From the IMG/VR virus record IMGVR_UViG_3300042257_000094, positions 19,915 to 83,914 of that record: a stretch of 64,000 nucleotides of DNA. One strand, given 5' to 3'. The notes under the pieces are model-generated. The model did no database searches. It was given only the letters and a program-made list of their open reading frames with translations, and was not told the origin of the DNA. Made by a program: the position numbers and the translations under genes. Positions 2,515 through 21,593 of the stretch are shown here, in pieces. The first letter of the stretch is position 1. The number at the start of each line of letters is the position of its first letter. The DNA comes from a virus. Taxonomy: Duplodnaviria; Caudoviricetes.

Positions 2515-2531
2515 ACAAAAGGATAAATAGG

Positions 2532-2873: not shown

Positions 2874-2946
2874 TTAAAAACTTCTTGACAACTAATCATT
2901 TCTTTGCTAGAACCTAATCATCTTGAAACAAAAAGGAGAAACGAAA

Positions 2947-4590: not shown

Positions 4591-4656
4591 GGATACCTAA
4601 TAAAAACTATATAAAAAGTATAAGGGGATGTAAAATACCTCTTTCTTTTATTTTTG

Positions 4657-4688
4657 CTTGACAAACAAGTTTTATTCTGATATAATGT
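4657..4688 (+). promoter_or_regulatory. consensus sigma70 promoter, copy 1 of a 32-bp direct repeat
   Basis: CTTGACAAACAAGTTTTATTCTGATATAATGT. Confidence 0.9.
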
Positions 4689-4715
4689 GTTCTACATAAA
4701 AGGAGAAATAGATAA

Positions 4716-4940
4716 ATGACTAACGAAAGTAATAAAAATATGTCAAATGTCATTTTTAAATTGAAGTGTTATCGTTGTGATTATGAATGGATTCCTCGCA
4801 AAGAGGAATTACCTAAAACCTGCCCACGATGCAGGGCCATTACGTGGAATAAGAAAGAAAAAACTACCAAAGGCGGCTATCGGGATGGGCGATCAGAAAC
4901 AATCTGGAAAGAACGAATCAAGAATAAAAAAGGAGAATAA
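4716..4940 (+). CDS. small Zn-ribbon protein (paralog 1)
   Basis: CYRCDYEWIPR...CPRCRAITWNK. Confidence 0.75.
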   Translation: MTNESNKNMSNVIFKLKCYRCDYEWIPRKEELPKTCPRCRAITWNKKEKTTKGGYRDGRSETIWKERIKNKKGE

Positions 4941-4944
4941 TTAA

Positions 4945-5613
4945 ATGTCTGAAATTAAACTTATTAATGGAGATTGTTTGGAGAAATTACGGGAACTTGA
5001 TAGAGCATCTATTGATGCTATTATCACGGATCCTCCTTATAATATAGCAAGAGATAATAATTTTACAACAATGGGGAGAGCTGGTATAGATTTTGGAGAA
5101 TGGGACAAAAACGCAGATATATTTTCATATATAGGGGAGGTATCCCGAATATTAAAAAAAGGAGGGTCTTTCGTCGTATTCAATGCTTGGCGTAATCTAG
5201 GTAAAATTGCAGAATATGCAGAAGATACAGGTTTCGTTACAAAAGATATGATTAGACTAGAAAAAACAAACCCTATGCCGCGAAACAGAGATCGTAGATA
5301 TATTACAGATTATGAGTGCGCTATTTGGTTTGTAAAACCCGGAAAATGGACGTTTAATCGACAAGACGATAAATATGAGCGACCTAAATTTGCATGCGGA
5401 ATAGAAAAAGGGTATCACCCTACTCAGAAAAATGTAAAGTTAATGGAGTGGTTAATTAAAATACATACTAATGAGAATGATGTTGTAGTAGACCCTTTTA
5501 TGGGAAGTGGAACAACGGGAGTAGCATGTAAGAACCTCAATCGTAATTTCATTGGTATTGAAATGGATAAAAATTATTTTGAAGTTGCAAAGAAGAGAAT
5601 AGGCAAGGCATAA
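4945..5613 (+). CDS. orphan N6-adenine/N4-cytosine DNA methyltransferase, beta class
   Basis: DPPY precedes HPTQK and DPFMGSGTT. Confidence 0.95.
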   Translation: MSEIKLINGDCLEKLRELDRASIDAIITDPPYNIARDNNFTTMGRAGIDFGEWDKNADIFSYIGEVSRILKKGGSFVVFNAWRNLGKIAEYAEDTGFVTKDMIRLEKTNPMPRNRDRRYITDYECAIWFVKPGKWTFNRQDDKYERPKFACGIEKGYHPTQKNVKLMEWLIKIHTNENDVVVDPFMGSGTTGVACKNLNRNFIGIEMDKNYFEVAKKRIGKA

Positions 5614-5618
5614 AACCT

Positions 5619-5650
5619 CTTGACAAACAAGTTTTATTCTGATATAATGT
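5619..5650 (+). promoter_or_regulatory. consensus sigma70 promoter, copy 2 of the 32-bp direct repeat
   Basis: Identical to 4657-4688. Confidence 0.9.
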
Positions 5651-5678
5651 TTCTTACCTATAATAAAAGGAAATAGGA

Positions 5679-5885
5679 ATGGATAAAGATATACGAATTA
5701 TTGAGAAATGCCGATGTCTTCGCTGTTCATATACTTGGTGGCCCAGAAAAGATAAATCCGAAATTAAACTCTGTCCTAGATGTAAAAGTCCAAACTGGAA
5801 CAAAGAAAGAACAAATTTACGAGGATTAAAACAAGGAACTACAACCTCTATTCACGAAATAAGAGATAGAAACAAAAGGAAATAA
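5679..5885 (+). CDS. small Zn-ribbon protein (paralog 2)
   Basis: CLRCSYTWWPR...CPRCKSPNWNK. Confidence 0.75.
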   Translation: MDKDIRIIEKCRCLRCSYTWWPRKDKSEIKLCPRCKSPNWNKERTNLRGLKQGTTTSIHEIRDRNKRK

Positions 5886-5887
5886 AC

Positions 5888-7870
5888 ATGGTAAACAATA
5901 AACAAGAATATAATATTACTCCCACCTCCAATATAGATTACGTCCATGAGTATTTTATTAAGGTTGCTCCTTATATGGCAAGAACCTTTGAAAATAACAA
6001 TACCGTGATGGTACTTGCATATATTCTATCTAAATGCTCTATGATTACTCACAAAGGACGCGATAGGCAGGGATGGGCATATGTTACGTATGGGGACATT
6101 TATACAAATACCAGAACACCCAGAAGCACCGCCGCAAGGTGCATAACACAATTAGTGAATAGCGGAGTTCTAGAAAAAGATACAAGGAATAATGGGGATC
6201 GATCCATCTGCTACTATAAACCTAACCAGAAATTAATAGACTCCCTCCGAGATGAGGATATCCATGTTTGGAATTTACTGAGAAATAAGAATATCCAACC
6301 TACAAAGAAGAATTTTGATAAATACGCAAAAATATCGGTTGAAATTCGTGAAAAGAGTAAAGGCACCTGTTCCATAGTGGAACACCCCTATTCCATAGTG
6401 GAACACCCCCCCGAAGAAGGCACCTGTTCCATAGTGGAACACCCCTGTTCCATAGTGGAACGACCCTATTCCATAGTGGAACGACCCTATTCCACTGTGG
6501 CACCCTTAATATATAACTTAATAAATAACTCTAAAAGATTACTTCTAATAGATAAAGCAACTATAAATAGTTGCACGACTTTGCCTATCGCTACCGCTCA
6601 GGCAGAAGTCGAGCACGTTAGTCAGGTTGCAAGCGAATCAATCCAAGGGGAAGTTTCCTTGCTAAATTCTAATGAAGATAAATCTAATGAGAATCCTAAT
6701 GAGAGTTCTCTTGTTACTTCTAATAATAATTCTAATCCTAGTTCTCCTTGTTTAATTAATAATAAAGATTCTTCAGAGGTCTTTCCTTGTTACTTAGATA
6801 ATAATTTAATTTCCGCGCCGCCAACCCCACAAAATTCCGACTCGGTGGCAAAGTGCGGTCCTGACGGCGGGGTGGACGTGTCTGTGGAGGGGGGTGAACT
6901 TGCCTCTGGGAGCTGTAGAATCGATTCTAACTCCAAATTCGACCTAGTACCCCACTCGGACACTAAAACGCAAAATCACCCCCAAAAAAACAATCATATA
7001 TTAAACCCTCAAAATCTGTTCAAATCAGGTAAGGGGAGCAAGAAAGAAGAAACAATGGCCGAACTCACGAAGATGAGGGAAACAGACCCCAAGTTCATGC
7101 GAATTTACGATACTTGGGTTGAGCAAGGGTTTCCTGCCCACAAACCAAACACGGCAGTCTTTCGAGAAGCCAAGAAAGTGATTCCTCAGATTCTTGATGG
7201 AACTTTTTTTGAGGACAAGGCAGATGTGGACGGGTATAGTCGTGTTTATTCGGTGAGAGAAATTATCAAGGCAATAAAAAACTTCAAACTCGCTTTTGAC
7301 GTTAACTATGAACCTGCTAATAAGAATTGGTTGAAGAAGCGAAAGAATCTTGCCAAGTTCTTTTTTGATCCGATGTTGCATACAAAGAGTTTGTTCATTG
7401 AGTTTTTGGAAGAGCCAAAACTTATTGAACCTGCAACTAAATCACCTGAAGCAAAATATCTGGAGAAATATCGAAAGAAATATGTGTATATGCCTGATTG
7501 GTTCAAGCCTTTATATGATATTTATGCAGAAGATGGAAGAATGATTCCTGAAGAAGAGTTCACTGAAGAACAAAATAAATGGGGAATTGCTTATTACTTC
7601 AACCATTTCATGCTTGATTTTGAGGAAGACGATGAAGGGTTGGCGTTTGGTGAATTGCCTTTTGGTTGGTCCGATATGGAGATTCTTGTTTCTCTGTGGC
7701 GAGAGCGGGATGGGGTTACAGATGAAGAATTTGAGTATGATCCGAATTTGATGGGAAGTTGGGAAGATGTTTTCTATGCCATTCAAAGCAAGGTGAATGA
7801 GATGGGCAGCAAGATGACTCGGAGCCATTTGTTCAGTGAAAAGGTCTGGAATATGGTGTATGAAGACTAA
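5888..7870 (+). CDS. putative replication initiator (N-terminal winged HTH, internal iterons)
   Basis: YGDIYTNTRTPRSTAARCITQLVNSGVLEK HTH, followed by DNA repeats and a low-complexity linker, as in lambda O-type initiators. Confidence 0.7.
   Translation: MVNNKQEYNITPTSNIDYVHEYFIKVAPYMARTFENNNTVMVLAYILSKCSMITHKGRDRQGWAYVTYGDIYTNTRTPRSTAARCITQLVNSGVLEKDTRNNGDRSICYYKPNQKLIDSLRDEDIHVWNLLRNKNIQPTKKNFDKYAKISVEIREKSKGTCSIVEHPYSIVEHPPEEGTCSIVEHPCSIVERPYSIVERPYSTVAPLIYNLINNSKRLLLIDKATINSCTTLPIATAQAEVEHVSQVASESIQGEVSLLNSNEDKSNENPNESSLVTSNNNSNPSSPCLINNKDSSEVFPCYLDNNLISAPPTPQNSDSVAKCGPDGGVDVSVEGGELASGSCRIDSNSKFDLVPHSDTKTQNHPQKNNHILNPQNLFKSGKGSKKEETMAELTKMRETDPKFMRIYDTWVEQGFPAHKPNTAVFREAKKVIPQILDGTFFEDKADVDGYSRVYSVREIIKAIKNFKLAFDVNYEPANKNWLKKRKNLAKFFFDPMLHTKSLFIEFLEEPKLIEPATKSPEAKYLEKYRKKYVYMPDWFKPLYDIYAEDGRMIPEEEFTEEQNKWGIAYYFNHFMLDFEEDDEGLAFGELPFGWSDMEILVSLWRERDGVTDEEFEYDPNLMGSWEDVFYAIQSKVNEMGSKMTRSHLFSEKVWNMVYED
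6362..6560. repeat. putative replication origin: six 21-bp iterons plus AT-rich tract
   Basis: TTCCATAGTGGAAC palindromic core x5 plus one variant, then AT-rich DNA. Confidence 0.8.
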
Positions 7871-7949
7871 GAAAGTTATTGACAAAAGCAGATAAAATAT
7901 GTAGAAGGGTAGCTAGTTTAAATTAAAAAACAAGGAAGGAGAAAAACAA

Positions 7950-8210
7950 ATGAAAAATTTTAGTGTAGAGGATATTCTTAAAGAAGTGTTTATTGGGAAG
8001 AGGATTAAAGAAACTGAATTTGTTCCTGATACTGAAAATGAGCGGGAGTATTACAAGGATAAGTATATGGATTTTCCTTCGTACGGCAAGAGGGTTATTG
8101 GTTGTCGTTTGAAATTTAATGGGGAAGATACTGTAGTTGTTTTGCTGTTTGAAGATTATACTATTTCTGAATTTTATACAAATGACACTTTTACTTTTAT
8201 GGAGGACTAA
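7950..8210 (+). CDS. hypothetical protein
   Basis: Promoter at ~7878 and AGGAG RBS. Confidence 0.6.
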   Translation: MKNFSVEDILKEVFIGKRIKETEFVPDTENEREYYKDKYMDFPSYGKRVIGCRLKFNGEDTVVVLLFEDYTISEFYTNDTFTFMED

Positions 8211-8211
8211 A

Positions 8212-8406
8212 ATGAGCAATAACAACACAAATTCTGGTGGTATTGGTATTTTCGGACTTCTTGGAGTTCTTTTTGTGGGACTCAAACTTACAGGACATAT
8301 TGATTGGTCTTGGTGGTGGGTAACTTTTCCGTTTTGGGGCGGATTTGCTCTTGTGGTAATGATTATTTTTATCACTGCTCTTATGTCTTATTTTGTAGAG
8401 AGGTAG
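8212..8406 (+). CDS. small two-TM membrane protein
   Basis: GGIGIFGLLGVLFVGLKLTGHIDWSWWWV, a common phage membrane-protein motif; RBS GGAGG. Confidence 0.7.
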   Translation: MSNNNTNSGGIGIFGLLGVLFVGLKLTGHIDWSWWWVTFPFWGGFALVVMIIFITALMSYFVER

Positions 8407-8411
8407 TTTCC

Positions 8412-8936
8412 ATGCGGCTTTTTTACAAAATTGAGAGAATGTTTGACTACATCCGGTATGATATTCCCTATGGACTTAGAAACCTTTGGAATTGGTTTCC
8501 TGTTATTTGGAATCATCGAAGTTGGGATGCTGTTTTTAGTCTCATGGTTCTTAAAAAGAGTCTCACAGAGGTTAGGGACGCCATAGAAAGAAACGCGCGA
8601 CACTTGGGATATGAGAAAAATGTGAGGAGAATGACCGTAGCTATTGAATGTCTGAAAAGGATTCTTGAGGAGGGTGATTTTTCTTATACAGATATGGCGT
8701 TTGATAAGCATGACGAGAAATGGGGAGAGCTTGAGTTTAGTTTTAAAGATGTTGAGGGGGCTAATGGAAATCTTAGTGAAACGATCTTTTCTAGAGACAA
8801 CGTGAATACTAAGGAAGACGAAGAGCAAGAAGAAAAAGAATATAAGTGGTGTTCTGAGAGAGAAAAGAAACTCAGGCAACAAGATATTGATATTTTTTTT
8901 GATACCATGAAACATTTTAGGAAGTGGTGGGATTGA
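8412..8936 (+). CDS. conserved hypothetical phage protein
   Basis: NLWNWFPVIWNHRSWD...KWWD pattern. Confidence 0.6.
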   Translation: MRLFYKIERMFDYIRYDIPYGLRNLWNWFPVIWNHRSWDAVFSLMVLKKSLTEVRDAIERNARHLGYEKNVRRMTVAIECLKRILEEGDFSYTDMAFDKHDEKWGELEFSFKDVEGANGNLSETIFSRDNVNTKEDEEQEEKEYKWCSEREKKLRQQDIDIFFDTMKHFRKWWD

Positions 8937-8945
8937 GTATAATAT

Positions 8946-9155
8946 ATGCTATACACTGAAGATAGATTTATATGTAATCAATGTGGATCTTCTGAGTGGA
9001 ATATGTTAATGTTACAGGATACCGTTTGGAAAATAATTAGTAAATATAAAAGAGAATTTTTATGTGTCCCTTGTATGGAAAAAAGAATGGGAAGAAAATT
9101 TAAGGAGTCGGAAATTAAACCAAATTTACTTTGTAATGATCGGTGGTGGAATTGA
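8946..9155 (+). CDS. small Cys-rich protein
   Basis: CNQC...LCVPCMEKRMGR. Confidence 0.55.
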   Translation: MLYTEDRFICNQCGSSEWNMLMLQDTVWKIISKYKREFLCVPCMEKRMGRKFKESEIKPNLLCNDRWWN

Positions 9156-9183
9156 TTATGTTTAGGAAAGTTGGGAGTTAATT

Positions 9184-9969
9184 ATGAGTGAAATAAATCC
9201 AAAGGATGTATCGTGTAAAAAGTGTACTAAATGTGGAGAATTTAAGTCTTTGGATGAGTTCTATAAATCGCCTACAGGAAAATTTAAAAGGGTTAGTAGA
9301 TGTAAGGAGTGTTTTAGGCTATATCAAAGGGAATACCAAGAAGAGCTTCGATTAAATAATGAAAAATATAAAGAATATAAAGAATATCAAAAAGAATATA
9401 GGAAAAATAATTTAGACAGACTTAGGAAACAAAAAGCAGAATGCGCCCGTATATGGCAAAGAAAACCTGCTAAATATACTACATATAAAGATAAATTGAC
9501 TTCTTTAGAATCCCCTAGAAAAGGAGAGGGCGGTATATTAGAGGTCAGGTGTGCAACTTGCCGGGAGTATTTTATTCCTAGTAAACAAAATGTACAGAAT
9601 AGAATAGATTCATTATATAGCAGTAACAGACGAGGGGAGTGCCGTCTTTATTGTTCCGAAGAATGTAAAACCTCTTGCTCTGTATATAATCAAAAGAAAT
9701 ATCCAAAAGACTTGACTAAACCTATTAAAAGAGAATATTCTAAAGAATTTCGTGAAATGATTCTTGAAAGAGATGAATATACTTGTCAAGTTTGTGGTGA
9801 GAGGTTTGATTCTAAAGAATTGCAAGCGCACCACATCAACCCTGTTATTTGTTCCCCAATGGAACAAGTAGATATTGAAAACGGAATTTGTGTTTGTAAA
9901 GAGTGTCATAATAAACTGCATGATCAAGATGGCTGTCGTTATCATGAATTACGGGATACTAAAAAATAA
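9184..9969 (+). CDS. HNH homing endonuclease
   Basis: N-terminal CxxC...FY...CKEC; ERDEYTCQVCG...AHHI...NGICVCKECHNKLH. Confidence 0.9.
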   Translation: MSEINPKDVSCKKCTKCGEFKSLDEFYKSPTGKFKRVSRCKECFRLYQREYQEELRLNNEKYKEYKEYQKEYRKNNLDRLRKQKAECARIWQRKPAKYTTYKDKLTSLESPRKGEGGILEVRCATCREYFIPSKQNVQNRIDSLYSSNRRGECRLYCSEECKTSCSVYNQKKYPKDLTKPIKREYSKEFREMILERDEYTCQVCGERFDSKELQAHHINPVICSPMEQVDIENGICVCKECHNKLHDQDGCRYHELRDTKK

Positions 9970-10182
9970 ATAAACGATAACTATATTAAATCTATTTAAT
10001 CAGAAAATATTTTTAACACTCATTTTCTAAAAAGAAAATAAGAAAATGGAAAAAATTCTAGCTCGATTATTATTTTCCAACTCACGCCCAAGCATAAACA
10101 AAAATCAAAAAACATCTTGACTTTCATTTCAGTTTGGACTATAAAATATCTCAACAAATCGAAACAAAAAGGAGTTCACAAC

Positions 10183-10377
10183 ATGACCAAGAATGAAGTT
10201 GTCAAGGTTTTCATGGAAAGAGATGGAATGTCTGAACTGGAAGCACAGGGACTCTTCAATGAGATCATGGATGATGTTCAGAGCATGATGGATGAGTGGG
10301 ATTTCATTGGAGCAGAAGAAGTTTTTATGAGTGAAACCGGACTTGAGCTAGATTATCTTTTGAATGTGTTGATGTAA
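10183..10377 (+). CDS. small acidic early protein
   Basis: Own promoter at 10116, AGGAG RBS, terminator downstream. Confidence 0.7.
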   Translation: MTKNEVVKVFMERDGMSELEAQGLFNEIMDDVQSMMDEWDFIGAEEVFMSETGLELDYLLNVLM

Positions 10378-10402
10378 ACGAAAAGACAAAACACAACAAA
10401 AA

Positions 10403-10435
10403 GAAAAGGAGCTTCATGTCGAGGCTCCTTTTTTG
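10403..10435 (+). terminator. intrinsic terminator
   Basis: AAAAGGAGCTTC/GAGGCTCCTTTT plus T-tract. Confidence 0.8.
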
Positions 10436-10652
10436 TGTCTTAATAGTAGGTAAATAGATAGATAAAAAAGAAAAGGCAAGAGGGATAAAATCCTTTTGTC
10501 TTGTTTTGTATAAGAATATTTTTGTTAGATAATTTTTATTATTTTATATAGACAAATGTAACAAATCGTAAAATGCTTATATAGGACTTCAGGGTAATGC
10601 GGATTTCGCGCCTAACCCGTGGGGGGCCGGCTCGATTCTAGACTTTCACCGG

Positions 10653-10722
10653 TGATAACCATTCTCAGCCGATATTGAGAATCATTTTCATTGATAACCA
10701 TTCTCATTGATTCTCATTTTCA
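10653..10722. promoter_or_regulatory. array of four Fur-box-like 7-1-7 motifs
   Basis: TGATAACCATTCTCA (10653, 10692), TGAGAATCATTTTCA (10676), TGATTCTCATTTTCA (10708). Confidence 0.6.
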
Positions 10723-11155
10723 ATTAGAAAAATTGGAATTGAAAAATCGTCGGTATGATATTTTATAGAATATACGATACCTATATACGTTTACATAGTA
10801 CGGAAAAAACGTAGGTCAAAAAATTGTCACTCTATTTTTTCAAAGATCAATACCTACCAAAATAATGACAAGCTGCGCGGAGGCATATTTTGCGCTCAAT
10901 GTCAAGCGATGTTATGGCACAAAATGAAAAAAATGTCAAGAAAATTCGGCAAGCATAAAAAGAAATGCTTGTCAAGTATTATTTTCAAAAAATGATGATT
11001 TTTTTTGCCGGCATGCTACATCATATATATAAGCAAAAAATGAGATAAAAAACAAAAAATCTGAAAAAACCTATTGACAACTCCGCCAGTATTTGAGACA
11101 ACAAAAACAACGGCAACGGGGAATAAACAAAAAACAAAAAACAGGGAGAATAAAA

Positions 11156-11380
11156 ATGACAAACTTTGCAGCCGCCACTATGACCGGTCTCCGCCGCAAC
11201 CTCCGCAACTACTACGGCAAGCGCAACTATCGGATCACGGCAAGCGGCGAGGTGCATTACTACGGCAATCCTATTGACGAGTACGACCGCACACATGACT
11301 ACTGGCATTATTTAGGTCGCGTCGAATATGTCGATAACGCCGTGACAAGGGAACGCGGTACAGTTTGGCGTATTGTATAA
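11156..11380 (+). CDS. early-island hypothetical protein
   Basis: RBS GGGAG; promoter near 11074. Confidence 0.65.
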   Translation: MTNFAAATMTGLRRNLRNYYGKRNYRITASGEVHYYGNPIDEYDRTHDYWHYLGRVEYVDNAVTRERGTVWRIV

Positions 11381-11446
11381 AAAATCGCTTGACGCGGTAA
11401 ACCGGATCAGATAGAACAAAAAAAACAAAAAAGAGGAGCCAGGAGA

Positions 11447-11869
11447 ATGCAGAAAAAAATTAACCATATCAAGCGCGAATTGCACGATCAGTTTGCACGC
11501 TATAATCACGATTTTTCATCGGCAATTGGGTTTTATGTCGACGAACTGACCAAAAAATCTGAAGGATACGACAACGTCGAAGATGTTATTGCCGACTTTT
11601 CCATGGGATGCTCAAGCGGCGTTGTTTCCGGTCTGATTTATTATTCCGATACTATTCGTTTTTTTGAGGAAAATAGGCCGGGAATTGTTGAACTTTTGTT
11701 GGAATTGCAGGACGATACCGGAGAAAATTGGATTAATATTTTCCGCGACATTGACAAAGACGACATTTTTTGCGACGAGCCGCACAATAAAAATCAATTG
11801 GCGTGGTATCTCTTTGAGGAACTCAATTATCGTGCTGAAATGATTTTGGAAAATACGGGGGAAAATTAA
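11447..11869 (+). CDS. acidic early protein, candidate DNA mimic
   Basis: GCSSGVVSGLIYYSDT..FF...KNQLAWYLFEE; D/E rich. Confidence 0.6.
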   Translation: MQKKINHIKRELHDQFARYNHDFSSAIGFYVDELTKKSEGYDNVEDVIADFSMGCSSGVVSGLIYYSDTIRFFEENRPGIVELLLELQDDTGENWINIFRDIDKDDIFCDEPHNKNQLAWYLFEELNYRAEMILENTGEN

Positions 11870-11871
11870 AA

Positions 11872-11982
11872 ATGGAATGGCTCGACGACTACGCGAAAGA
11901 ATTGGAATGTTTTGATGGACTAGACGTTGATTGTCTTGGTTGTTATGAAGCGGAAGAAACGGAAGAAACGGAACAAGAGTAA
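11872..11982 (+). CDS. 36-aa highly acidic peptide (not in ORF track)
   Basis: MEWLDDYAKELECFDGLDVDCLGCYEAEETEETEQE; starts 2 nt after the previous stop, GGGGG RBS. Confidence 0.55.
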   Translation: MEWLDDYAKELECFDGLDVDCLGCYEAEETEETEQE

Positions 11983-12009
11983 TAACAGAAAAAACAAGGA
12001 GAACAAAAA

Positions 12010-12282
12010 ATGGAACGTAAAAACTATATGCTCAACGGACATAGTGTGTCTCTGAAAACTGCAAGTGATATCAAATGGTACCACCTTGAAAAAAATCCCG
12101 ATTCTCACTTTTTCGACCGCGAGACTATGTTATTTTTTGGGGATACTATGGGTAATTTTGGGGTTTATTGGGATGAAAACGGCTATCGCTGCATCTATCG
12201 CAAAAAACCCGTAAAAAACGGCTTGCGCGGCGGTTTCCGATTGCGTGATGAAGACGGCGATCTCATGCCGATTCGGAAGTAA
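12010..12282 (+). CDS. early-island protein with HFFDRETMxFFG motif
   Basis: Shared RBS leader AAAAAACAAGGAGAACAAAAAATG. Confidence 0.7.
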   Translation: MERKNYMLNGHSVSLKTASDIKWYHLEKNPDSHFFDRETMLFFGDTMGNFGVYWDENGYRCIYRKKPVKNGLRGGFRLRDEDGDLMPIRK

Positions 12283-12378
12283 AAAATCAATTTTCAGCTT
12301 GACAGATGCAGGGCGATTGAAATAATATCGCCTTGCATCGAATGAAGTTAAAAATTAAAAAAACAAGGGGAACAAAAA

Positions 12379-12978
12379 ATGCGTACAATCATCAAAGAGA
12401 CAACGGTTTACAAGTTTGGGGAATTGCCGGACGAATCGCAGAAAAAGGCGTTGGATAACTACAGGGATATTAATGTCGATTATCCTGATTGGGATGATTA
12501 TGTGATCGAATACTGGCAGGAAAAACTGGCAAGCATCGGTTTTGATGACGTTGAGATACAATACTCCGGCTTCTGGTCACAAGGAGACGGCGCAAGTTTT
12601 ACGGCCGATGTTGATTTTTTGAACCTCCTGCCTACGTATATTGATTATGCATTGGAACCTAACAGCAAACAAGCAAAAAGGTTGATCGCGCTTGCCCTGG
12701 CCGGATACTTTGATGGAGCGTGGAAAATTGAAAGAATGTCTTATCATTACATGCATGAAAATACAATATCCTGCTCCGAAACATATGGGCTTGATTGCCT
12801 TGTAAATAATGAGATACTCAATATTGAGCAAAATATCACGGACCTTGCGCGGCACTATTCGCGGGAAGTATACGCAAGCCTTGAAAAAGAATACGATTTT
12901 TTGACAAGTGATGAATCGGTAAAAAGAGCATTGATCATCAACGGATATGAATTTACACTTGACGGAAAGATTTATTAA
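12379..12978 (+). CDS. conserved early/leading-region protein (YSGFWSQGDGASF motif)
   Basis: VYKFGEL...YSGFWSQGDGASF...EYDFLTSDE...NGYEFTLDG; acidic. Confidence 0.7.
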   Translation: MRTIIKETTVYKFGELPDESQKKALDNYRDINVDYPDWDDYVIEYWQEKLASIGFDDVEIQYSGFWSQGDGASFTADVDFLNLLPTYIDYALEPNSKQAKRLIALALAGYFDGAWKIERMSYHYMHENTISCSETYGLDCLVNNEILNIEQNITDLARHYSREVYASLEKEYDFLTSDESVKRALIINGYEFTLDGKIY

Positions 12979-12995
12979 AACAAGGAGAACAAAAA

Positions 12996-13556
12996 ATGAA
13001 AATCACTATCAATGCCAATGTTTTTTACGCCGTAGCATGTTTTTGCAGCGATGACGACGCGATGGAGGCGGTTACTTGTGTCCATGTGACACAAGATGCA
13101 ATCCAGGCCACCAATGGATACGCTGCAATGCGATATACAAGACAAGACGGGGAACCTATTTTTTCGGACCGTGAATATCTGATCAAGCCCGATAAAAAAG
13201 TATTAACCAAGGCAAAACAAGAAAAGGCATTACACATGTGCGTGGATGAAGAAAACACACTCACGGTACTGGACAAGCACGGTAAAATCATGATACAACA
13301 AAAAAATGCTTTGCGCGATTGGCAATTTCCGAACATGCAACATATATGGTCTTTTTTACAAAACGGACCGGTTGATATGCAATATGTTCCGGTGTTCTCA
13401 AAAATGTTGGAATTGATCGCAAAGCCGTTCCCGCACGAAAATGAACCCGTCAAAATCACATCAACCGGAGATGAAAAGCCGTTGATAGTTGAATATATCT
13501 ATCAACCGCGATATGATTGCCTTGTGATGCCAGTTTATCTTCCCGCCACGGAATAG
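12996..13556 (+). CDS. truncated DNA pol III beta-clamp-like protein
   Basis: VHV...QATNGYAA...FPN...KPLIV...LVMPV resembles clamp domain motifs (ATDGHRL, YP, LIMP). Confidence 0.5.
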   Translation: MKITINANVFYAVACFCSDDDAMEAVTCVHVTQDAIQATNGYAAMRYTRQDGEPIFSDREYLIKPDKKVLTKAKQEKALHMCVDEENTLTVLDKHGKIMIQQKNALRDWQFPNMQHIWSFLQNGPVDMQYVPVFSKMLELIAKPFPHENEPVKITSTGDEKPLIVEYIYQPRYDCLVMPVYLPATE

Positions 13557-14046
13557 CAAGAAAAAACAAAAAATCTTTTCCCGATATCCTGACTATAACA
13601 AAACCTCTTGCCACAAACGACAAGGGGTTTTTTCATATTCATTGATTGAAAATGAAAATTAATATCAAAAAAAAGCACAAGCAAAGAGACAATACAAAGC
13701 ACGCAACCAACCAGCACCAAACAACACCTATATACGCCCGTTCCCGGCGTTCTAAGGCGTTTTAAGTGATTCCTGATATATGGACAAGGGAAAGTGTGCA
13801 AAATGGATTCTGGGCGTATTTGCGGGCGATTTATGGGGCATGGGATGGATATGAGGAGCAAAGAGGCGGGAAAGCGGATCATATAAGGTAGGTGAGACTG
13901 AAAATCGTTATCAATTATAAAACGATGGGCATATAATGGATATATAATGAGTATAGCAGTATTCATGCGAGCACGCCTATTCCAATAGCATATTTGATAA
14001 AAAATAAAAAATCCTAGAATCGGTATAAAAAAGATACTGTTGCAAA

Positions 14047-14157
14047 ATGCAACACTTGTGCAAAAAGTTGCATTATCAATTTTTCTGATAGTAATCATCA
14101 AAAAAACTGATAATGCGTTTTGGGTATGATGATTATATAAGACCATACCCAAAACGC
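14047..14157. repeat. adjacent inverted repeats (hairpin cluster)
   Basis: AATGCAAC/GTTGCATT; GCATTATCAATTTTTCTGA/TCAAAAAAACTGATAATGC; perfect 14-bp GCGTTTTGGGTATG/CATACCCAAAACGC. Confidence 0.85.
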
Positions 14158-15092
14158 CCAAGCGATTGATATTCCTAGCTCATTTTTCCACGTCAATTCT
14201 AGCTTCCTGGCAAATAGTGGGTATGCCCGTACTATTCACCCATATTGCCAGGTTCTGATAGGCACGGGCAAGCCGGGAACCCTATTAATACGTTTACTGG
14301 ATACCGCCTTGTACACATGGTCATAGGTGGCTATCAGGATATAATGAGTGATAATATCAAAGGATAGCAGGCAGTTACCTTGCTAGTGTGCCAGTATAGG
14401 AAGGCAGGCAATCAATATAGCCAGACCTATGGGACCATAAATATCTGATATAATTGGGATTTTGCTAGTTGAGAATGAGAATCAACTACCCCACCCCCCT
14501 CCTTTGAATCTATACCTCCCCGGTAGGAAATATGGAGATAGGGACACCACCACATTTCTCCAGCAAATTTTTGAAATATTAGGAATGGGGTGGTTATGTT
14601 CTTCTTGACATTTCCCACAATATACCTTATGATTTCAACTTATCTGGACAAGGTGGTTTAGATCTATTTCATGGTATTTTATATTATTAGAACAAGGTGA
14701 AACAACAAAGGAGCTTATTTCAGGTTAATTAAAAAAGTTAAAACAGCAGGGGGATGTTAATTAAATAATTAGACTTTTTTAAATAACACCACAAAAAACC
14801 AATCGTGTTACGGGAACGTGTTACGCAAATTCCGAAATCCCCTAGGGAGAGCAAAAATTAAAAGTGAGTGATACCAACGGTTTTGTAAAATTGCTGAGTT
14901 GCTGCATTTTTTGCAATATCTCAATTCGTGTGCAATGAGTGCTACTTTTTTATAAAAACGTGTTACATAATAGAGGTAACGAAGTTCAAATCCTTCTGTT
15001 TTATTGAATCACTTGACAAAATTAAATCTATATGCTAGGCTCTGCTCTAGTTAATGGATAGTATTTTGAAATCTAAAAAGAAGGAGAAGAAA

Positions 15093-15425
15093 ATGTTTGG
15101 TTATAGAATTATTTCAGATGAAGAGCTTGCTATCTTAAAGTACGAAAAATATGGAGCAGGTAGATATGTAGAGCAACTTAAAAAAGAGAATGAGATGTTA
15201 CGGAACAAGGTGGATGTGTTGGAAAAAACCATTCACAAATATATGGAGGAAGAGGGGGAGGAAGCCCTTTGCGATCCTGAAATCATGGGATGGGAAGAAT
15301 CAAGTCCTTGCGATAACTGTAGGAATCATCATGATATAATTTTTGTACAGGAGGGAGACATAACCAATGAAATTTGTAATGAATGTGAAATGCCTGAAAT
15401 GACAAATTGGGAACCCTGCGAATAG
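15093..15425 (+). CDS. hypothetical protein
   Basis: Promoter at ~15012, AAGGAG RBS; coiled coil and C-terminal Cys pairs. Confidence 0.6.
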   Translation: MFGYRIISDEELAILKYEKYGAGRYVEQLKKENEMLRNKVDVLEKTIHKYMEEEGEEALCDPEIMGWEESSPCDNCRNHHDIIFVQEGDITNEICNECEMPEMTNWEPCE

Positions 15426-16303: not shown

Positions 16304-17287
16304 ATGGCCCAATCTCTTGGTGAATTTGTAGAAGATATCGTCGGCGATTATTTTATCAACGATGATGAATATTTTGAATCAAAATATCTTTTTGATTTTG
16401 ATGAAGAAGAGGAGTGGGACGATGCGGGCGAGTTTGAAAAATTGTCTGCCCCCTCCTATTCTCCTTCTGTGTGTTCTATTGATTATTGTGATAAAGAGGC
16501 CAATGAGAGTGGGTTCTGTGAATATCACCGAAAACTGGCTGAAGCAGGAATCATATTTGAAACCAGAAAACAAGAGACGAATTACTTTCGATCTTTTCAA
16601 CCAAAAAAAGAAAAAGAAAAAAAGAACCGTTGCATAATCCCGGGCTGCCCCCAAGTTACCAAAACAAACTATCGAGTTCTTTGTCCAAGACATCACAGAG
16701 AAGTTGTAAAATATGGGCACACGATAACAGAAGGATTGGGTAGACATAGAGTATTCATTTATAAAAATAAAAAACGGAACCTGAACTTTGGGGAAGTCGT
16801 TGTATATAGACCACAAATAAATGATTTTGTTTCTCTGATATTAGACTACCCATTCTACCACGAGGTTAGGCGATCCAAAATACTTTTTCTTGAACATGGT
16901 GTGCCGTGGATAATACAGAAAAGGGGAAAGAAGAAAAAGATAGCGAACCATGTGTTAGGTCTTGCTAATAAACATATTGTGTTTTATAATAACAAAAATA
17001 TATATGACTTGAGAGCTAGTAACCTGAAACCAATGGATAAGTTCAAGTTTGATTTTATAGATTGGAGCGCAAATAATTGGCTTAAAAATCATTCTTATAT
17101 CCACTATGAAAAAAGTTCGCGGCACTGGTGTGTTGAAATGTTCGCTAATCTTCCGGAATCAAGGGTAAGAAGATATTTTAAAACAAAAAAAGAAGCAAAA
17201 ATATTTAGAAACCTGGTCATAGAAGCGGTCTATGGAAAAGATATATTTTATTTAATACGAAAATATAAGAAAGGTGGATTTATTTAA
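16304..17287 (+). CDS. degenerate HNH-AP2-like protein with Cys/His fingers
   Basis: CSIDYC..CEYH, CIIPGC..LCPRHH; NNKNIYDLRASNL is HNH-like but lacks the catalytic His; C-terminal AP2-like W...F.TKKEA. Confidence 0.5.
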   Translation: MAQSLGEFVEDIVGDYFINDDEYFESKYLFDFDEEEEWDDAGEFEKLSAPSYSPSVCSIDYCDKEANESGFCEYHRKLAEAGIIFETRKQETNYFRSFQPKKEKEKKNRCIIPGCPQVTKTNYRVLCPRHHREVVKYGHTITEGLGRHRVFIYKNKKRNLNFGEVVVYRPQINDFVSLILDYPFYHEVRRSKILFLEHGVPWIIQKRGKKKKIANHVLGLANKHIVFYNNKNIYDLRASNLKPMDKFKFDFIDWSANNWLKNHSYIHYEKSSRHWCVEMFANLPESRVRRYFKTKKEAKIFRNLVIEAVYGKDIFYLIRKYKKGGFI

Positions 17288-17550
17288 TGAAAAAACTAAA
17301 AAAACTAAAAAAACTAAAAAATATAAAAGAGACAGTTGGGATGCTGGGAGGAAGTGGAGATCGATTCACATGTGTTTGGTGGAAAAGGCCGTTTGTGTTT
17401 CCCATCTATATTTATTGTTTTATTTATACACAGTTCTTTTGGATCTATCACATGGTGAATTTCCTCTTGTTTGGTGATATGTCGATCTTTGATGTGGAAG
17501 ACGCCGCCGGTGACATACGTACAGGGGGTGAGAGCAATGACTATGAATAA
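17287..17550 (+). CDS. hypothetical membrane protein
   Basis: Coupled to the upstream ORF; hydrophobic segment. Confidence 0.4.
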   Translation: MKKLKKLKKLKNIKETVGMLGGSGDRFTCVWWKRPFVFPIYIYCFIYTQFFWIYHMVNFLLFGDMSIFDVEDAAGDIRTGGESNDYE

Positions 17551-18049
17551 TAATGATGATAAGAATAACAATAAAATCATTCCCAAATTAAATACAACGG
17601 AGTTATCAAACAATGATTATGGAGTTATGTTTTGGGAGGCCACTCACAAGTGCTTATATAGTTGTCCCATGTGGGAAGATTGCCCTTACGCCGGAGTATC
17701 TATTAAATGTGATCTTTGTTATAGATTTCTTAATGAAGTAAAGAACGCGATTATCGTTTCTTTGGAGGATAATCGGGTTCAAGAATACCAAAAACATTTC
17801 TTAGGGACGGGGCTGTTCTCTCTCTGGAATCAGTGGATGCAATTGGAAATTATTCGTATATCATTGGAGTCCCCTATGTATAATACACCAAAAGGAGAAC
17901 CTAAAGTTCATCCGGTTTATAAGGCGCAGCGGGAAGTTTTTGCAAGTATTAAGAATATATATGAATCTGTATTCGGTAAAGAAAAAGCACAACATATTGC
18001 GGATATAGATATCGGTGTAGATAGTTTAGAAAAAGCATTGAGATCATAA
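17537..18049 (+). CDS. putative terminase small subunit
   Basis: TPKGEPKVHPVYK resembles P27-type TerS; located upstream of TerL. Confidence 0.55.
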   Translation: MTMNNNDDKNNNKIIPKLNTTELSNNDYGVMFWEATHKCLYSCPMWEDCPYAGVSIKCDLCYRFLNEVKNAIIVSLEDNRVQEYQKHFLGTGLFSLWNQWMQLEIIRISLESPMYNTPKGEPKVHPVYKAQREVFASIKNIYESVFGKEKAQHIADIDIGVDSLEKALRS

Positions 18050-18269: not shown

Positions 18270-20234
18270 ATGACAACAGTAAAACAGTTATCTTCGGAGG
18301 AGTATATTAGACAAAGGGACTTAATTATTGATCAATATGAAAAACAGAATATAAGTGAAGAAATATGTATTCGTAAACTTCAAAATTTATATGCCAAGAG
18401 AGTTCCGCTTTATAGAAATGGTGGAACAGGATTTATTTTGTGGGCAGAAGAGAATGTCAGAGTTCTCGCGTATCTACCCGGAACATCTATTCTCAAACCC
18501 ACCTATCTTGCTGATTTGTCTCGTGAACCAGAGCCAATGACAGGAAGAACATGGTGGGATTTTTGGTGTTGGCAAAAAGATATTTGTCGGCAAGCGCTGA
18601 AACTTGACACAGACGGAAGACTCAAACATAACTTGGTTGTATTTTGTACAGAACGTGGTGAAGGAAAGTCCTTCATGGCGGTTCTTATTCTTTTGTGGAA
18701 ATTTACCGTATTCGCTAACCAACGTATATTTCTTGCGGCAAACTCAAAAGAACAGTCATCCTTTGCTCATCGTGAAGAAATGGATAAGATTATTAGAATT
18801 AGTCCGGTTCTACTTGCTCTTGTTGGAGGTGAAAAAAATATTCAGAAGAAAGAACTTGCAATCTATGATAGCCGGGGGTTGAAGATTTCGTTCATTACAA
18901 CCGTTTCTACTTTCACAGGTGTTCTTTCAAACGCAACAGGGTTCTCTTTTTCGGAGTTCTTCCAAGCAAAACCGGATGCCCCGTTCTTTAATGAAATCTA
19001 TACCTCCATGCGTAACACACCTAACGCATTAGGTGTTATTGATTCCACTGTATCAACAAGAGACCATAAGTTATATAAACTTTATGAGGCTATTCAGAAA
19101 GGAGAAAAAGGAACAGATAGTTGGTTCTTTTACTATAAGTGTAACCCCACTGCTGATGTGAACAAGTATATGTCTCCAGCAAATACACAGAAACAGCTTG
19201 ATGCCTTCCAAGCATCCACCGCAGCCAATCCAGTTGAATTTGATATGTTCTTCAAAAACACGTGGGATACAGCTCAGAAAGGCTTGTTCTCGGAAGAACT
19301 GGTAGATGCGTGTCATTATTTAGGTGCAAGTGGAAAACTACTGAATCAACAAGAGATAATGAAACAAAATGAAACATTAACTAAACATGTTTCAGATAAT
19401 GTGTATGCTGACTATCAAGGATTTGAAAAACGCTTTAATCAAGATATTGTATATTTTGACAAGAAGGCATTAAAAGATATCGATGAGTATATTGCTCCAT
19501 TGAATGAGATTGCTTATTTTGCCCCTGCGGATGCTGTTGCAAAACTTAGTGATCTTTTAGACACAGATTGGGCAATAGGACTTGGACTTGATAGAAGTGA
19601 CCCACTTGCAACTCGTTCTTCAGCACAGACAGTTTTAACTTGTGTTGCAAAAGGATTGCCTGGAAGTCGATCTAATCCACAGAAGTTTGTAGATATGTCA
19701 AAAGAAGATTATGACGCTCCTGATTATATTCATATTTTGATCGGTATTCATGTTTCTAGTAGTAGTAATAGTAATGACCTGCAAAAGATTATTAGTGAAT
19801 GGGCCGATGAATATAACGGTATCGAATCGTTTTCTTCTGACCGCTATGGTGTAAGTGATTTGGCGGGGTGGTTGACGAGTGAAGAAATTGTAGAAAAACC
19901 TGAAGTTGTTCATTTCTCACAACAGAAACAACAGGAAGTGTTTTCTATTCTCTATAACACCGTTGCCTATGGTAGATTCAAGATGCCAAGGATTCATATT
20001 GTTGGCGCAAAAGAAAGCGATATTCTTGTAGAGCAGCTCAAAAACTTTTCTGTTACTTATGATGGAAGAAAAGTGACTTATGGTAGTCCGGATAAAAAAC
20101 ACATGGGAGCGATTCAGGATGATGCTGTAGATGCACTTGCGATGGCTGTTTACGGCATGCGGTATTTGGGATTAGACGACTTTAGATCGGTAGACGGTTC
20201 TTTATTTTTTGGAACGTATATTCCCCCACAATAA
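18270..20234 (+). CDS. terL: terminase large subunit
   Basis: WQKD Q-motif, ERGEGKS Walker A, AANSKEQS, DST motif III, RNase H-like GLGLDRS and QDDAVDALAMA. Confidence 0.9.
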   Translation: MTTVKQLSSEEYIRQRDLIIDQYEKQNISEEICIRKLQNLYAKRVPLYRNGGTGFILWAEENVRVLAYLPGTSILKPTYLADLSREPEPMTGRTWWDFWCWQKDICRQALKLDTDGRLKHNLVVFCTERGEGKSFMAVLILLWKFTVFANQRIFLAANSKEQSSFAHREEMDKIIRISPVLLALVGGEKNIQKKELAIYDSRGLKISFITTVSTFTGVLSNATGFSFSEFFQAKPDAPFFNEIYTSMRNTPNALGVIDSTVSTRDHKLYKLYEAIQKGEKGTDSWFFYYKCNPTADVNKYMSPANTQKQLDAFQASTAANPVEFDMFFKNTWDTAQKGLFSEELVDACHYLGASGKLLNQQEIMKQNETLTKHVSDNVYADYQGFEKRFNQDIVYFDKKALKDIDEYIAPLNEIAYFAPADAVAKLSDLLDTDWAIGLGLDRSDPLATRSSAQTVLTCVAKGLPGSRSNPQKFVDMSKEDYDAPDYIHILIGIHVSSSSNSNDLQKIISEWADEYNGIESFSSDRYGVSDLAGWLTSEEIVEKPEVVHFSQQKQQEVFSILYNTVAYGRFKMPRIHIVGAKESDILVEQLKNFSVTYDGRKVTYGSPDKKHMGAIQDDAVDALAMAVYGMRYLGLDDFRSVDGSLFFGTYIPPQ

Positions 20235-21470: not shown

Positions 21471-21593
21471 AAAAATAGAAAAAATATATAAAAATAAAAT
21501 AAAACTTGACTTTTTGTGAGGAAATTGGTATAATGTCGCCAGTTTCCTCATAATTTTTATAAAAGGAGAAATAGCTTGATAAACGAAAATACA

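What the first reader, a model, noticed from the sequence alone, without database searches (positions are those of the whole stretch)
10620..14500. Early-gene island bracketed by Fur-box-like motifs at both ends (candidate terminal repeat or first-injected DNA)
Seen: at least eight 15-bp TGANAATNATTNTCA-type motifs in the non-coding flanks, at 10653, 10676, 10692, 10708 on the left and 13653, 13899, 14086, 14470 on the right. The motifs at 10707 (TTGATTCTCATTTTCA) and 14470 (TGAGAATGAGAATCAA) are near-inverted copies. A G-run at 10621 and a C-run at ~14490 bound the ~3.9 kb segment. Established: this matches the 7-1-7 Fur-family box. Inference: host Fur (or PerR/Zur) binds the genome ends and could gate early anti-defence expression by iron status, be titrated to derepress host iron uptake for the phage's Fe-S proteins (NrdG, gpL-like), or serve as a host factor in packaging or ejection. 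The motifs could alternatively be terminase sites.
Basis: partly seen in the sequence, partly recalled or inferred. Interest (0 to 1): 0.75.

Follow-up and report, generated by a model that had tools for sequence, protein, structure and literature searches.

The report
Fur-type boxes bordering phage early genes
An uncultured phage from anaerobic habitats has a small block of early-looking genes whose two non-coding borders carry conserved DNA sites resembling docking sites for the bacterial iron sensor Fur, the same layout as in the first-injected end of phage T5, but binding and the genome ends remain untested.

Summary
All eight motifs are at the stated coordinates. The two non-coding flanks hold 8 boxes, against 0.44 +/- 0.65 in dinucleotide shuffles (0 of 1000 reach 8). 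Genome-wide, 6 of the 9 boxes with at most 1 mismatch lie in the 3.9-kb island. The inverted pair is a 34-nt repeat with 28 matches, better than 60 of 60 shuffles.

An independent 85-kb relative (terminase 69% identical) has only two such boxes, one at each border of the same island. The island's gene content differs apart from one protein.

The boxes match published clostridial Fur consensus sequences. The phage encodes no Fur.

In phage T5, all 6 boxes lie in the two terminal repeats, near the outer end and inside the annotated injection stop signal.

Best reading (0.45): host Fur-type operator arrays form the border modules of a hypervariable early-gene cassette.

The host is unknown. This scan has noted the same pattern before on other phage DNA.

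The parts
10395..10502 (+). Two terminator-like hairpins that close the upstream rightward gene block
   Evidence: Inverted repeat 10395-10415/10421-10441; terminator-like site 10473-10502
10571..10619 (.). Unique conserved ~50-nt element of the left border
   Evidence: 82% identical to L005:105-154, while the surrounding non-coding DNA has diverged. Single copy in the genome. No RNA-structure signal (z -0.3 to +0.8) and no Rfam match
10620..10647 (.). G+C-rich variable spacer holding the G-run (10621-10626), then the conserved GACTTTC word (10641-10647)
   Evidence: Sequence and alignment A1. The G-run is replaced by a C-rich stretch in L005
10653..10722 (.). Left array of four Fur-type 15-mers (10653, 10676, 10692, 10708); the last three are each separated by a single T
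   Evidence: local shuffles. Two boxes sit at the same place in L005:187-218
10707..10740 (.). Left arm of the 34-nt inverted repeat
   Evidence: 28 of 34 matches, above 60 of 60 shuffles
10899..10976 (.). Three (A)TGTCAAG words about 35 nt apart (iteron-like)
   Evidence: Positions 10900, 10934, 10970. Block 10881-10940 is 76% identical to L005:298-357, which holds five to six similar words. They read as TTGACA on the minus strand but have no usable -10
11047..11080 (+). Conserved promoter block (TTGACA at 11074) in front of the first island gene
   Evidence: 83% identical to L005:477-511; promoter listing
11156..11380 (+). Gene, 74 aa, basic, no family
11447..11869 (+). Gene, 140 aa, DUF7222, acidic (pI 4.4)
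   Evidence: Pfam E 2.2e-14
11872..11982 (+). Small acidic ORF of 36 aa (read by eye)
   Evidence: Sequence; not tested further
12010..12282 (+). Gene, 90 aa, no family
12299..12326 (+). Near-consensus sigma-70-type promoter (11 of 12, TG extension)
12379..12978 (+). Gene, 199 aa, phrog_5162, acidic; the only island protein shared with the relative (47% identical)
   Evidence: AlphaFold2 pLDDT 95.1; no PDB match at E <= 0.001
12996..13556 (+). Gene, 186 aa, phrog_3007. Its first codons overlap a 1-mismatch box at 12997. The homologue in the relative lies elsewhere, on the other strand
13645..13668 (.). Composite box just after the last gene's hairpin; 21 of 24 identical to the right-border box of the relative (L005:3371-3394)
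   Evidence: hexamer layout and 19-mer scan
13899..13913 (.). Box; with the next base (13899-13914) 16 of 16 identical to the relative's left-border box in inverted orientation. It overlaps the -35 of a predicted promoter (13908-13937)
14070..14116 (.). 20-bp-stem palindrome that holds the box at 14086-14100
14452..14485 (.). Right arm of the 34-nt inverted repeat, holding the box at 14470-14484
14489..14499 (.). Poly-C run at the right border. A box followed directly by a C-run is kept in L005 and L002. The contig of the 94-97% identical relative G001 ends at the equivalent of 14501
14539..14586 (.). Conserved right-border words: TAGGGACA..CCACA, and the 19-mer at 14568-14586
   Evidence: Alignment A2 of 4 sequences
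14605..14633 (+). Near-consensus promoter (11 of 12) reading into the genes upstream of the terminase

Best explanation
Shown: the motifs are functional cis-elements. They are arrays of Fur-type operator sequences that form the two non-coding border modules of a roughly 3.9-kb, hypervariable cassette of small genes driven by host-type promoters. The phage is an uncultured ~84-kb siphovirus-like phage of an anaerobe.
- Left module: a unique 50-nt conserved element, a G+C-rich spacer, four tandem boxes, three short iteron-like words, and a conserved promoter.
- Right module: boxes, the outermost lying in inverted orientation inside a 34-nt inverted repeat, then a poly-C run and two conserved words.

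Inferred: the boxes are docking sites for dimers of the host's Fur (or a Fur-family paralogue). The phage has no Fur, and unrelated phages of very different hosts carry the same sequence.

More weakly inferred: the bound protein does not act as a simple promoter-occluding repressor. Instead it builds nucleoprotein borders around the first-expressed DNA. This would work like the repeat regions and injection stop signal of T5, either insulating or pausing DNA transactions at the cassette edges, and it would make them depend on the host's iron state. A side effect could be titration of Fur as phage DNA replicates.
For: 1. Non-randomness: 8 boxes in 2217 nt of flanks against 0.44 +/- 0.65 (0 of 1000 shuffles). 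Six of the 9 boxes genome-wide with at most 1 mismatch lie in the island.
2. Positional conservation: the 85-kb relative G002/L005 (terminase 69% identical) has just 2 boxes with at most 1 mismatch in the whole record, at the left and right borders of the syntenic island. Of the island proteins, only one is shared, at 47% identity.
3. Fur-likeness: the boxes have 1-2 mismatches to the C. difficile consensus TGATAATVAWHWTCA (passages of PMC6311696). Several are laid out as two direct hexamers plus one inverted hexamer, as in the classical 19-bp box (recalled; scan). The TGA...TCA ends are kept in every copy.
4. No Fur-family gene in the phage (PF01475: 0 matches; the control found it in 14 of 14 genomes).
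5. The only island protein shared with the relative is acidic (pI 4.4), so it is a poor candidate for a DNA binder.
6. Same motif across hosts: a distant relative (terminase 38% identical, 61% G+C) has one perfect box, in a repeat-laden non-coding stretch with C-runs downstream. By my own arithmetic the chance expectation is about 3e-4 per record.
7. T5: all 6 boxes with at most 1 mismatch in 121,750 bp lie in the two terminal repeats. They sit at 233 and at 9658/9693, inside the annotated injection stop signal 9140-10149. T5 9698-9713 and window 10707-10722 agree at 15 of 16 bases.
8. T5 literature: in T5-like phages, inverted repeat copies 1.85-4.26 kb apart bracket a poorly conserved ~3-kb coding region (passages of preprint 10.1101/866236). 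Our terminase profile and T5 proteins A1 and A2 find nothing across the two phages, so a shared host factor is more economical than a shared phage protein.
9. An iron link is plausible: the phage encodes NrdD and the 4Fe-4S activase NrdG.
Against: - No binding data exist, and the host is unknown. Attempts gave no host.
- The boxes do not overlap the strong consensus promoters. The left array lies about 350 nt upstream of the 11074 promoter and the right border box about 120 nt upstream of the 14605 promoter. Only the box at 13899 overlaps a predicted promoter.
- Some copies are poor palindromes and look like direct hexamer repeats (10708, 14470).
- In L005 the border-to-border inverted repeat is only 20 nt at 75%, unexceptional among the 98 pairs found.
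- Two other distant relatives, both incomplete records, have no box (G005, G006).
- Bacillus phage SPO1, which has a long terminal repeat of early genes (recalled), has 0 boxes in 132,562 bp.
- The boxes do not accompany the 199-aa gene family in general: 4 boxes in 430,134 nt of 80 loci, 2 of them in the contig already known.
- The comparative support rests on essentially two independent lineages plus T5.
Confidence: 0.45

Rival explanations
1. The boxes bind a phage-encoded or other non-Fur protein, such as an early regulator, an A2-like DNA-binding protein or the small terminase. On this reading the likeness to the Fur box is a coincidence of A+T-rich palindromes.
For: The boxes sit beside other phage-specific conserved words: the unique 50-nt element, the ATGTCAAG words and TAGGGACA. 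They do not overlap strong promoters. The candidate small terminase (17471-18049) is 73% identical between the two phages, so it could keep its DNA specificity.
Against: The same 15-mer family turns up in T5 and in a relative with 61% G+C, yet no shared terminase, A1 or A2 is detectable. The only shared island protein is acidic. The TGA/TCA ends and the hexamer layout fit Fur specifically.
Confidence: 0.25
2. The island is a direct terminal repeat, or lies at a cohesive end. The border modules are then the sites where terminase recognises and cuts the concatemer, which would make the island the first or last DNA to enter. This does not exclude Fur binding.
For: - Unique conserved elements next to G+C-rich runs lie at both borders.
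- The contig of the 94-97% identical relative ends at the equivalent of 14501, 2 nt after the poly-C run.
- The terminase gene lies 3.8 kb downstream.
- In T5 the same boxes mark both edges of the terminal repeat.
Against:
- The window's own contig and G002 run through both borders without a break.
- The other end of G001 lies in a tandem-repeat gene, so its breaks may be assembly artefacts, and a homopolymer can break an assembly.
- The borders are 3-7 kb from the putative small terminase gene, which is far for a cos or pac site.
- The terminase matches no cultured phage, so its type gives no hint.
Confidence: 0.2
3. The left flank is a replication origin or control region (iteron-like words, A+T-rich DNA, host-factor sites), and the boxes are part of it.
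For: Three to six short words spaced at about 35 nt lie next to the box array in both phages. T5 and the distant relative also show box-plus-tandem-repeat layouts.
Against: This does not explain the right-border box, the inverted repeat or the poly-C run. The replication genes lie far away on the other strand. DnaA-type boxes are not enriched: 13 against 8.5 expected, with 2 in the right flank.
Confidence: 0.08
4. The inverted repeats are targets of a site-specific recombinase that inverts or exchanges the cassette.
For: The 34-nt inverted repeat is significant. The phage has a 262-aa tyrosine recombinase at 1726-2514, and a homologue is present in G002. The cassette content is hypervariable.
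Against: The recombinase lies about 9 kb away and not next to the repeats. The cassette has the same orientation in 2 of 2 phages. The repeat is weak in L005. The genes carry their own promoters, so inversion would switch little.
Confidence: 0.06
5. The matches are chance hits in A+T-rich non-coding DNA.
For: The flanks are 63-68% A+T.
Against: None of 1000 shuffles reaches the observed count, and the boxes are positionally conserved in the relative.
Confidence: 0.01

Closest known systems
[quoted passage not shown]
   Same: - Fur-type 15-mers of the same family mark both edges of a block of pre-early or early small genes. In T5 they are at 233 and 9554-9713, and these are the only boxes with at most 1 mismatch in the genome.
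- One T5 copy agrees with the window's left border at 15 of 16 bases.
- Box arrays lie next to arrays of short direct repeats.
- Inverted repeat copies a few kb apart bracket poorly conserved small genes (passages of 10.1101/866236).
   Different: - No detectable protein kinship: terminase profile, A1 and A2 give no match.
- The island is 3.9 kb against T5's 10.2-kb repeat.
- It is not shown to be terminal or repeated.
- There are no paired DnaA boxes.
- The host is an unknown anaerobe, not E. coli.
- The T5 preprint does not mention Fur (0 occurrences), so the Fur reading of T5 is itself only a sequence inference.
Chromosomal Fur operators of Firmicutes (7-1-7 box; published consensus sequences for C. 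difficile and C. acetobutylicum)
   Same: The sequence matches at 13-14 of 15 positions, and the sites come in tandem or overlapping arrays.
   Different: Chromosomal operators overlap the -35/-10 of iron-uptake promoters. Here most boxes lie away from the strong promoters and flank genes with no link to iron.
Fur boxes upstream of prophage cargo genes (the sitABCD operon on lambdoid coliphages)
   Same: A host Fur site carried on phage DNA (passage of PMC6969025).
   Different: There a single operator in front of an iron or manganese transporter folds that cargo gene into the host regulon. Here arrays border a cassette of unknown small genes in a phage with no recognisable lysogeny module other than a small recombinase.
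Cos sites of lambda-like phages (nicking site plus repeated terminase-binding sites; recalled, not tested)
   Same: A unique conserved element, a G+C-rich core and several repeated 15-16-bp sites in a row.
   Different: The terminase genes are 3-7 kb away. A second, inverted module lies 3.8 kb downstream. No end data are available.

Membership tests
Fur operator (Fur box) | Sequence match to the 7-1-7 / published Fur consensus | tested here: met
Ten of the 39 genome positions with at most 2 mismatches lie in the island
Fur operator (Fur box) | Overlaps the promoter of the regulated gene | tested here: inconclusive
   Only the box at 13899 overlaps a predicted -35. The left array and the right border box lie 120-350 nt from the consensus promoters
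Fur operator (Fur box) | Metal-dependent binding by Fur (gel shift, footprint, titration assay, ChIP) | not testable with these tools
The host is unknown
Fur operator (Fur box) | A Fur protein is available in the infected cell | tested here: inconclusive
   The phage has none, and the host is not identified. Fur was found in 14 of 14 control genomes of that call, so it is widespread
T5-type first-step-transfer region with injection stop signal | Lies in a long direct terminal repeat that enters first | not testable with these tools
The assembly is circular with a 127-bp overlap elsewhere
T5-type first-step-transfer region with injection stop signal | Large untranslated regions with conserved repeats and palindromes, in inverted copies that bracket variable small genes | tested here: met
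   The inverted repeat is weak in the relative
T5-type first-step-transfer region with injection stop signal | Pre-early genes dmp, A1, A2 | tested here: not met
   A1 and A2 give no match at E <= 1 in the whole genome. dmp was not tested
T5-type first-step-transfer region with injection stop signal | Paired DnaA boxes in the repeats (as proposed in preprint 10.1101/866236) | tested here: not met
   Two single TTTTGCACA words at 13795 and 14057. The window has 13 in total against 8.5 expected
Direct terminal repeat of a phage genome | Twofold read depth with sharp read starts at both borders | not testable with these tools
The runs found are held only as contigs
Invertible DNA segment | Inverted repeats with an adjacent recombinase, and both orientations present in populations | tested here: inconclusive
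   Inverted repeat present. The recombinase is about 9 kb away. Orientation is the same in 2 of 2 phages

The most novel reading that the evidence does not exclude
Unrelated virulent phages (T5 of E. coli and this phage of an anaerobe) recruit the host iron sensor Fur as a structural host factor at the borders of the DNA that enters and is expressed first. On this reading the long-unexplained palindromes of the T5 injection stop signal are a Fur array. This phage would then have a 3.9-kb first-step-transfer-like segment: one end at the poly-C border, and a Fur/iteron 'stopper' at the other, so that DNA entry or early expression depends on the host's iron state.
Probability: 0.13. Interest if true: 0.9.

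Novelty: new variant of a known kind. Interest (0 to 1): 0.62.

Why it matters
If host Fur really docks at these borders, a universal bacterial metal sensor would be a recurrent host factor for the first-expressed DNA of virulent phages. That role differs from the known single Fur operators in front of prophage cargo genes.

It would also give a concrete and cheap test in a classical system, T5 infecting E. coli with or without fur, or with and without iron. The question it addresses is a 50-year-old one: what stops T5 DNA after the first 8%.

My searches found nothing in print linking the two. No paper holds both 'phage T5' and 'ferric uptake regulator'. No paper holds 'Fur box', 'bacteriophage' and 'early genes' together. 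The T5 iss preprint never mentions Fur. Subscription journals are not covered by these searches.

For metagenomic phages, such border modules could also serve as markers of early-gene or counter-defence cassettes.

Tried and rejected
- Read coverage and termini: the look-up of sequencing runs found 24 runs, all held as contigs.
- Host identification: the terminase profile in genome contigs gave only two mis-binned-looking MAG contigs at 35-37% identity. NrdD found no close relative. The protein atlas gave mixed taxa. The host remains unknown.
- Cultured relatives: the island DNA gave no meaningful match in 'phages'. The terminase protein gave none.
- RNA readings: Rfam found nothing at E <= 1 in 10380-15100. 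The left conserved element folds no better than shuffles on either strand in both phages.
- Pattern scans for the border words in viral contigs returned only the contigs already known plus one chance hit in coding DNA, L007.
- The 199-aa family as an anchor: the metagenome scan kept 80 loci. Only the known relative carries border boxes.
- I considered that this gene family sits near contig ends as a sign of physical termini. I dropped the idea because several of those ends fall in tandem repeats.
- Fold of the 199-aa protein: the model is confident but Foldseek found no PDB match at E <= 0.001. The wider search was not sent because the queue was full.
- DnaA boxes are not enriched.
- SPO1 has no boxes, so long terminal repeats do not carry them as a rule.
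- The minus-strand TTGACA words at 10905-10975 lack usable -10 elements, so I do not read them as leftward promoters.

Full report
WHAT THE DNA IS

The window is bases 19,915-83,914 of an 83,914-bp virus contig whose two ends are identical over 127 bp, so it is a circularly closed assembly. It encodes:
- a tape measure protein (32345-35527), a major head protein (25305-26561), a head protease and a weakly recognisable large terminase (18270-20234);
- a tail-tip J-like protein;
- anaerobic ribonucleotide reductase NrdD with its 4Fe-4S activase NrdG, and an SbcCD-like pair;
- two tRNAs, HNH endonucleases, a DNA methylase and a small tyrosine recombinase.

Genes run rightward from about 4 kb before the window's start to about 46,000 and leftward in the rest of the genome. 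The terminase matches no cultured phage, and the island DNA matches none either. Public runs that hold the stretch come from wastewater, bioreactor, oil-field, landfill and aquatic metagenomes. The host is unknown. NrdD/NrdG point to an anaerobe. Strong GGAG-type ribosome sites and cTTGACAa-N17-TAnAAT promoters point to a bacterium with a standard sigma-70-type polymerase.

THE OBSERVATION

- In the two non-coding flanks (2217 nt) there are 8 boxes with at most 2 mismatches, against 0.44 +/- 0.65 in 1000 dinucleotide shuffles. With at most 1 mismatch there are 5 against 0.03.
- Genome-wide, 6 of the 9 boxes with at most 1 mismatch lie in the island, which is 4.6% of the genome.
- The other three (22202, 29987, 57631) lie in what reads as coding sequence. 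22202 is in the 535-aa gene 21576-23183, probably the portal. 29987 is in a small ORF whose protein is kept in the relative while the box is not. 57631 lies in what I read as a minus-strand ORF (not checked by a tool).
- The near-inverted pair is part of a 34-nt inverted repeat (10707-10740 / 14452-14485) with 28 of 34 matches. This is the best pair in the 4.9-kb region and exceeds 60 of 60 shuffles.
- The G-run (10621-10626) and the C-run (14489-14499) are real.

ANATOMY

Left border, read:
- two terminator-like hairpins;
- a single-copy 50-nt conserved element (10571-10619);
- a G+C-rich spacer of about 22 nt;
- the word GACTTTC;
- four boxes, the last three abutting with single-T spacers;
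- about 170 nt of A+T-rich DNA;
- three (A)TGTCAAG words about 35 nt apart;
- a conserved TTGACA promoter block (11047-11080).

Six small rightward genes follow. Three have family matches: DUF7222, phrog_5162 and phrog_3007. The DUF7222 and phrog_5162 proteins are acidic, pI 4.4.

Then comes about 1.5 kb with no convincing gene (13557-15053). It holds four boxes (one inside a 20-bp-stem palindrome), the right arm of the inverted repeat, the poly-C run, two conserved words and a near-consensus promoter at 14605.

RELATIVES

A terminase search of IMG/VR gave five loci.

The 85,259-bp contig G002 (locus L005; terminase 69%, head and tail proteins 63-76% identical) has the same module:
- the 50-nt element (82% identical), GACTTTC and two boxes on the left;
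- a box directly followed by a C-run, then the same two conserved words, on the right.
These two boxes are the only ones with at most 1 mismatch in its 85 kb. Between them the gene content differs, apart from the 199-aa protein (47% identical), and the genes around the island are rearranged.

The window's box at 13645-13668 is 21 of 24 identical to that relative's right-border box. The window's box at 13899-13914 is 16 of 16 identical to its left-border box in inverted orientation. So the boxes form one family that recurs at cassette junctions.

In L005 the border-to-border inverted repeat is only 20 nt at 75%, which is unexceptional.

The contig of a 94-97% identical phage (G001) lacks the island and ends at the equivalent of 14501, 2 nt after the poly-C run. 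Its other end falls in a tandem-repeat gene, so this break may be an assembly artefact.

Distant relatives (terminase 35-38% identical):
- one of the three records scanned (61% G+C) has a single perfect box, 212 nt from its contig end, between two tandem-repeat arrays, with C-runs 300-400 nt downstream;
- the other two, which are incomplete, have none.

WHAT THE BOXES LOOK LIKE

They match the published clostridial Fur consensus sequences at 13-14 of 15 positions (passages of PMC6311696; scan). Several are arranged as two direct hexamers plus one inverted hexamer, as in the classical 19-bp box (recalled; scan). The phage has no Fur-family gene.

The boxes do not overlap the strong promoters, so simple promoter occlusion is not the obvious mode of action. 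The left conserved element shows no RNA-structure signal and no Rfam match, so it is most simply a DNA site.

THE T5 PARALLEL

Notes from earlier sessions of this scan pointed to T5, and I checked this myself.
- In NC_005859, all six boxes with at most 1 mismatch lie in the two copies of the terminal repeat. They sit at 233, near the outer end, and at 9658 and 9693, inside the annotated injection stop signal 9140-10149 and beside the major nick at 9748.
- Two more copies with 2 mismatches lie at 9554 and 9699.
- T5 9698-9713 and window 10707-10722 agree at 15 of 16 bases.
- The T5 boxes are followed by an array of short direct repeats. The window, L005 and the distant relative likewise have short repeats next to their boxes.
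- The preprint 10.1101/866236 (passages read) describes the T5 repeat regions as highly conserved and unexplained. It notes that inverted copies 1.85-4.26 kb apart bracket a poorly conserved ~3-kb coding region, puts the shear point of first-step transfer at about 9618, proposes DnaA as the stopper, and never mentions Fur.
- The two phages are not detectably related: the terminase profile, A1 and A2 give no match.
- Bacillus phage SPO1 has no box at all, so the pattern is not general to long terminal repeats.

READING

Shown: the boxes are non-random, conserved, border-specific cis-elements of a hypervariable small-gene cassette.

Inferred: their partner is a host protein with Fur's specificity. 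The reasons are that the sequence fits, the phage has no Fur, the only shared island protein is acidic, and unrelated phages of different hosts carry the same 15-mer.

Weaker inference: their placement away from promoters, next to unique elements and homopolymer runs, and the T5 analogy suggest a DNA-level role (a border, pause or insulation complex, possibly linked to the ends or to entry) rather than classical repression. Iron dependence and Fur titration would follow as consequences.

The terminal-repeat idea remains open because the one coverage test could not be run.

Rivals are a phage-encoded binder (0.25), terminase or end-processing sites (0.20, compatible with Fur binding), an origin (0.08), a recombinase target (0.06) and chance (0.01).

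PRIOR KNOWLEDGE AND NOVELTY

Fur boxes on phage DNA are known in front of prophage cargo genes such as sitABCD (passage of PMC6969025).

I found nothing in print on Fur-type arrays bordering early genes of virulent phages or in the T5 iss:
- no paper for 'Fur box' + 'bacteriophage' + 'early genes';
- 3 papers for 'Fur box' + 'phage genome' by listing; one was read in passages and none concerns this by title;
- 5 papers for the four terms, none relevant by title and abstract start;
- no paper for 'phage T5' + 'ferric uptake regulator';
- 28 papers for 'Fur titration' + 'phage', of which 10 were listed and none is relevant by title.
Subscription journals and supplementary files were not visible to me.

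This scan has noted the same pattern before on other phage DNA. Those notes are unreviewed, and I verified only the T5 part.

Noticed in passing
window 2923-4590: A 555-aa gene with a weak leucine-rich-repeat match is built of about 60-nt tandem repeats. The contig of the near-identical phage G001 breaks inside it.
   Followed up: partly
window 1726-2514: A small (262-aa) tyrosine recombinase lies next to two tRNA genes in a phage with no other lysogeny gene seen. G002 has a homologue (44% identical) on the opposite strand relative to the island.
   Followed up: partly
window 12379-12978: The 199-aa acidic protein belongs to a large unnamed family (339 of 418 candidates at E <= 0.001, all unnamed or 'hypothetical'). 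It has an invariant GFWSQGDG motif and a very confident predicted fold (pLDDT 95) with no Foldseek PDB match.
   Followed up: partly
window 13669-14467: About 800 nt lie between two copies of the border-type box (13645-13668 and 14468-14486). In the relative one box directly abuts the C-run, so this stretch may be an insertion or a lost cassette. It holds a predicted promoter at 13908-13937 and a 20-bp-stem palindrome at 14070-14116.
   Followed up: no
window 9184-9969, 16304-17287 and 26620-27579: HNH endonuclease genes, with a weak match for 16304-17287. The 9184 gene's DNA has three full-length look-alike copies, plus two short fragments, scattered in G002, and two copies in G003, as expected of homing endonucleases.
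   Followed up: no
L005:3400-4250: The ORF-poor stretch right of the relative's island holds three copies each of two about 30-nt words (CTCCCTATAGTAAA-type and GGGCTAATTCAGATTT-type). Read by eye.
   Followed up: no
L102:60-340: In the distant relative with 61% G+C, the single perfect box sits between a 15-nt repeat (about five copies) and a 24-nt repeat (three copies), 212 nt from the contig end.
   Followed up: partly
window 1-10400 versus L005:4250-9800: Homologues of window genes 2532-2873 and 4945-5613 (the methylase) lie upstream of the island in the window but downstream of it in the relative. The island and its borders, or the neighbouring genes, have therefore moved as a block.
   Followed up: no
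window 23340-23368: A consensus TTGACA-N17-TATAAT promoter lies directly in front of the head protease and head protein genes, so host-type promoters are not limited to the early-looking regions.
   Followed up: no
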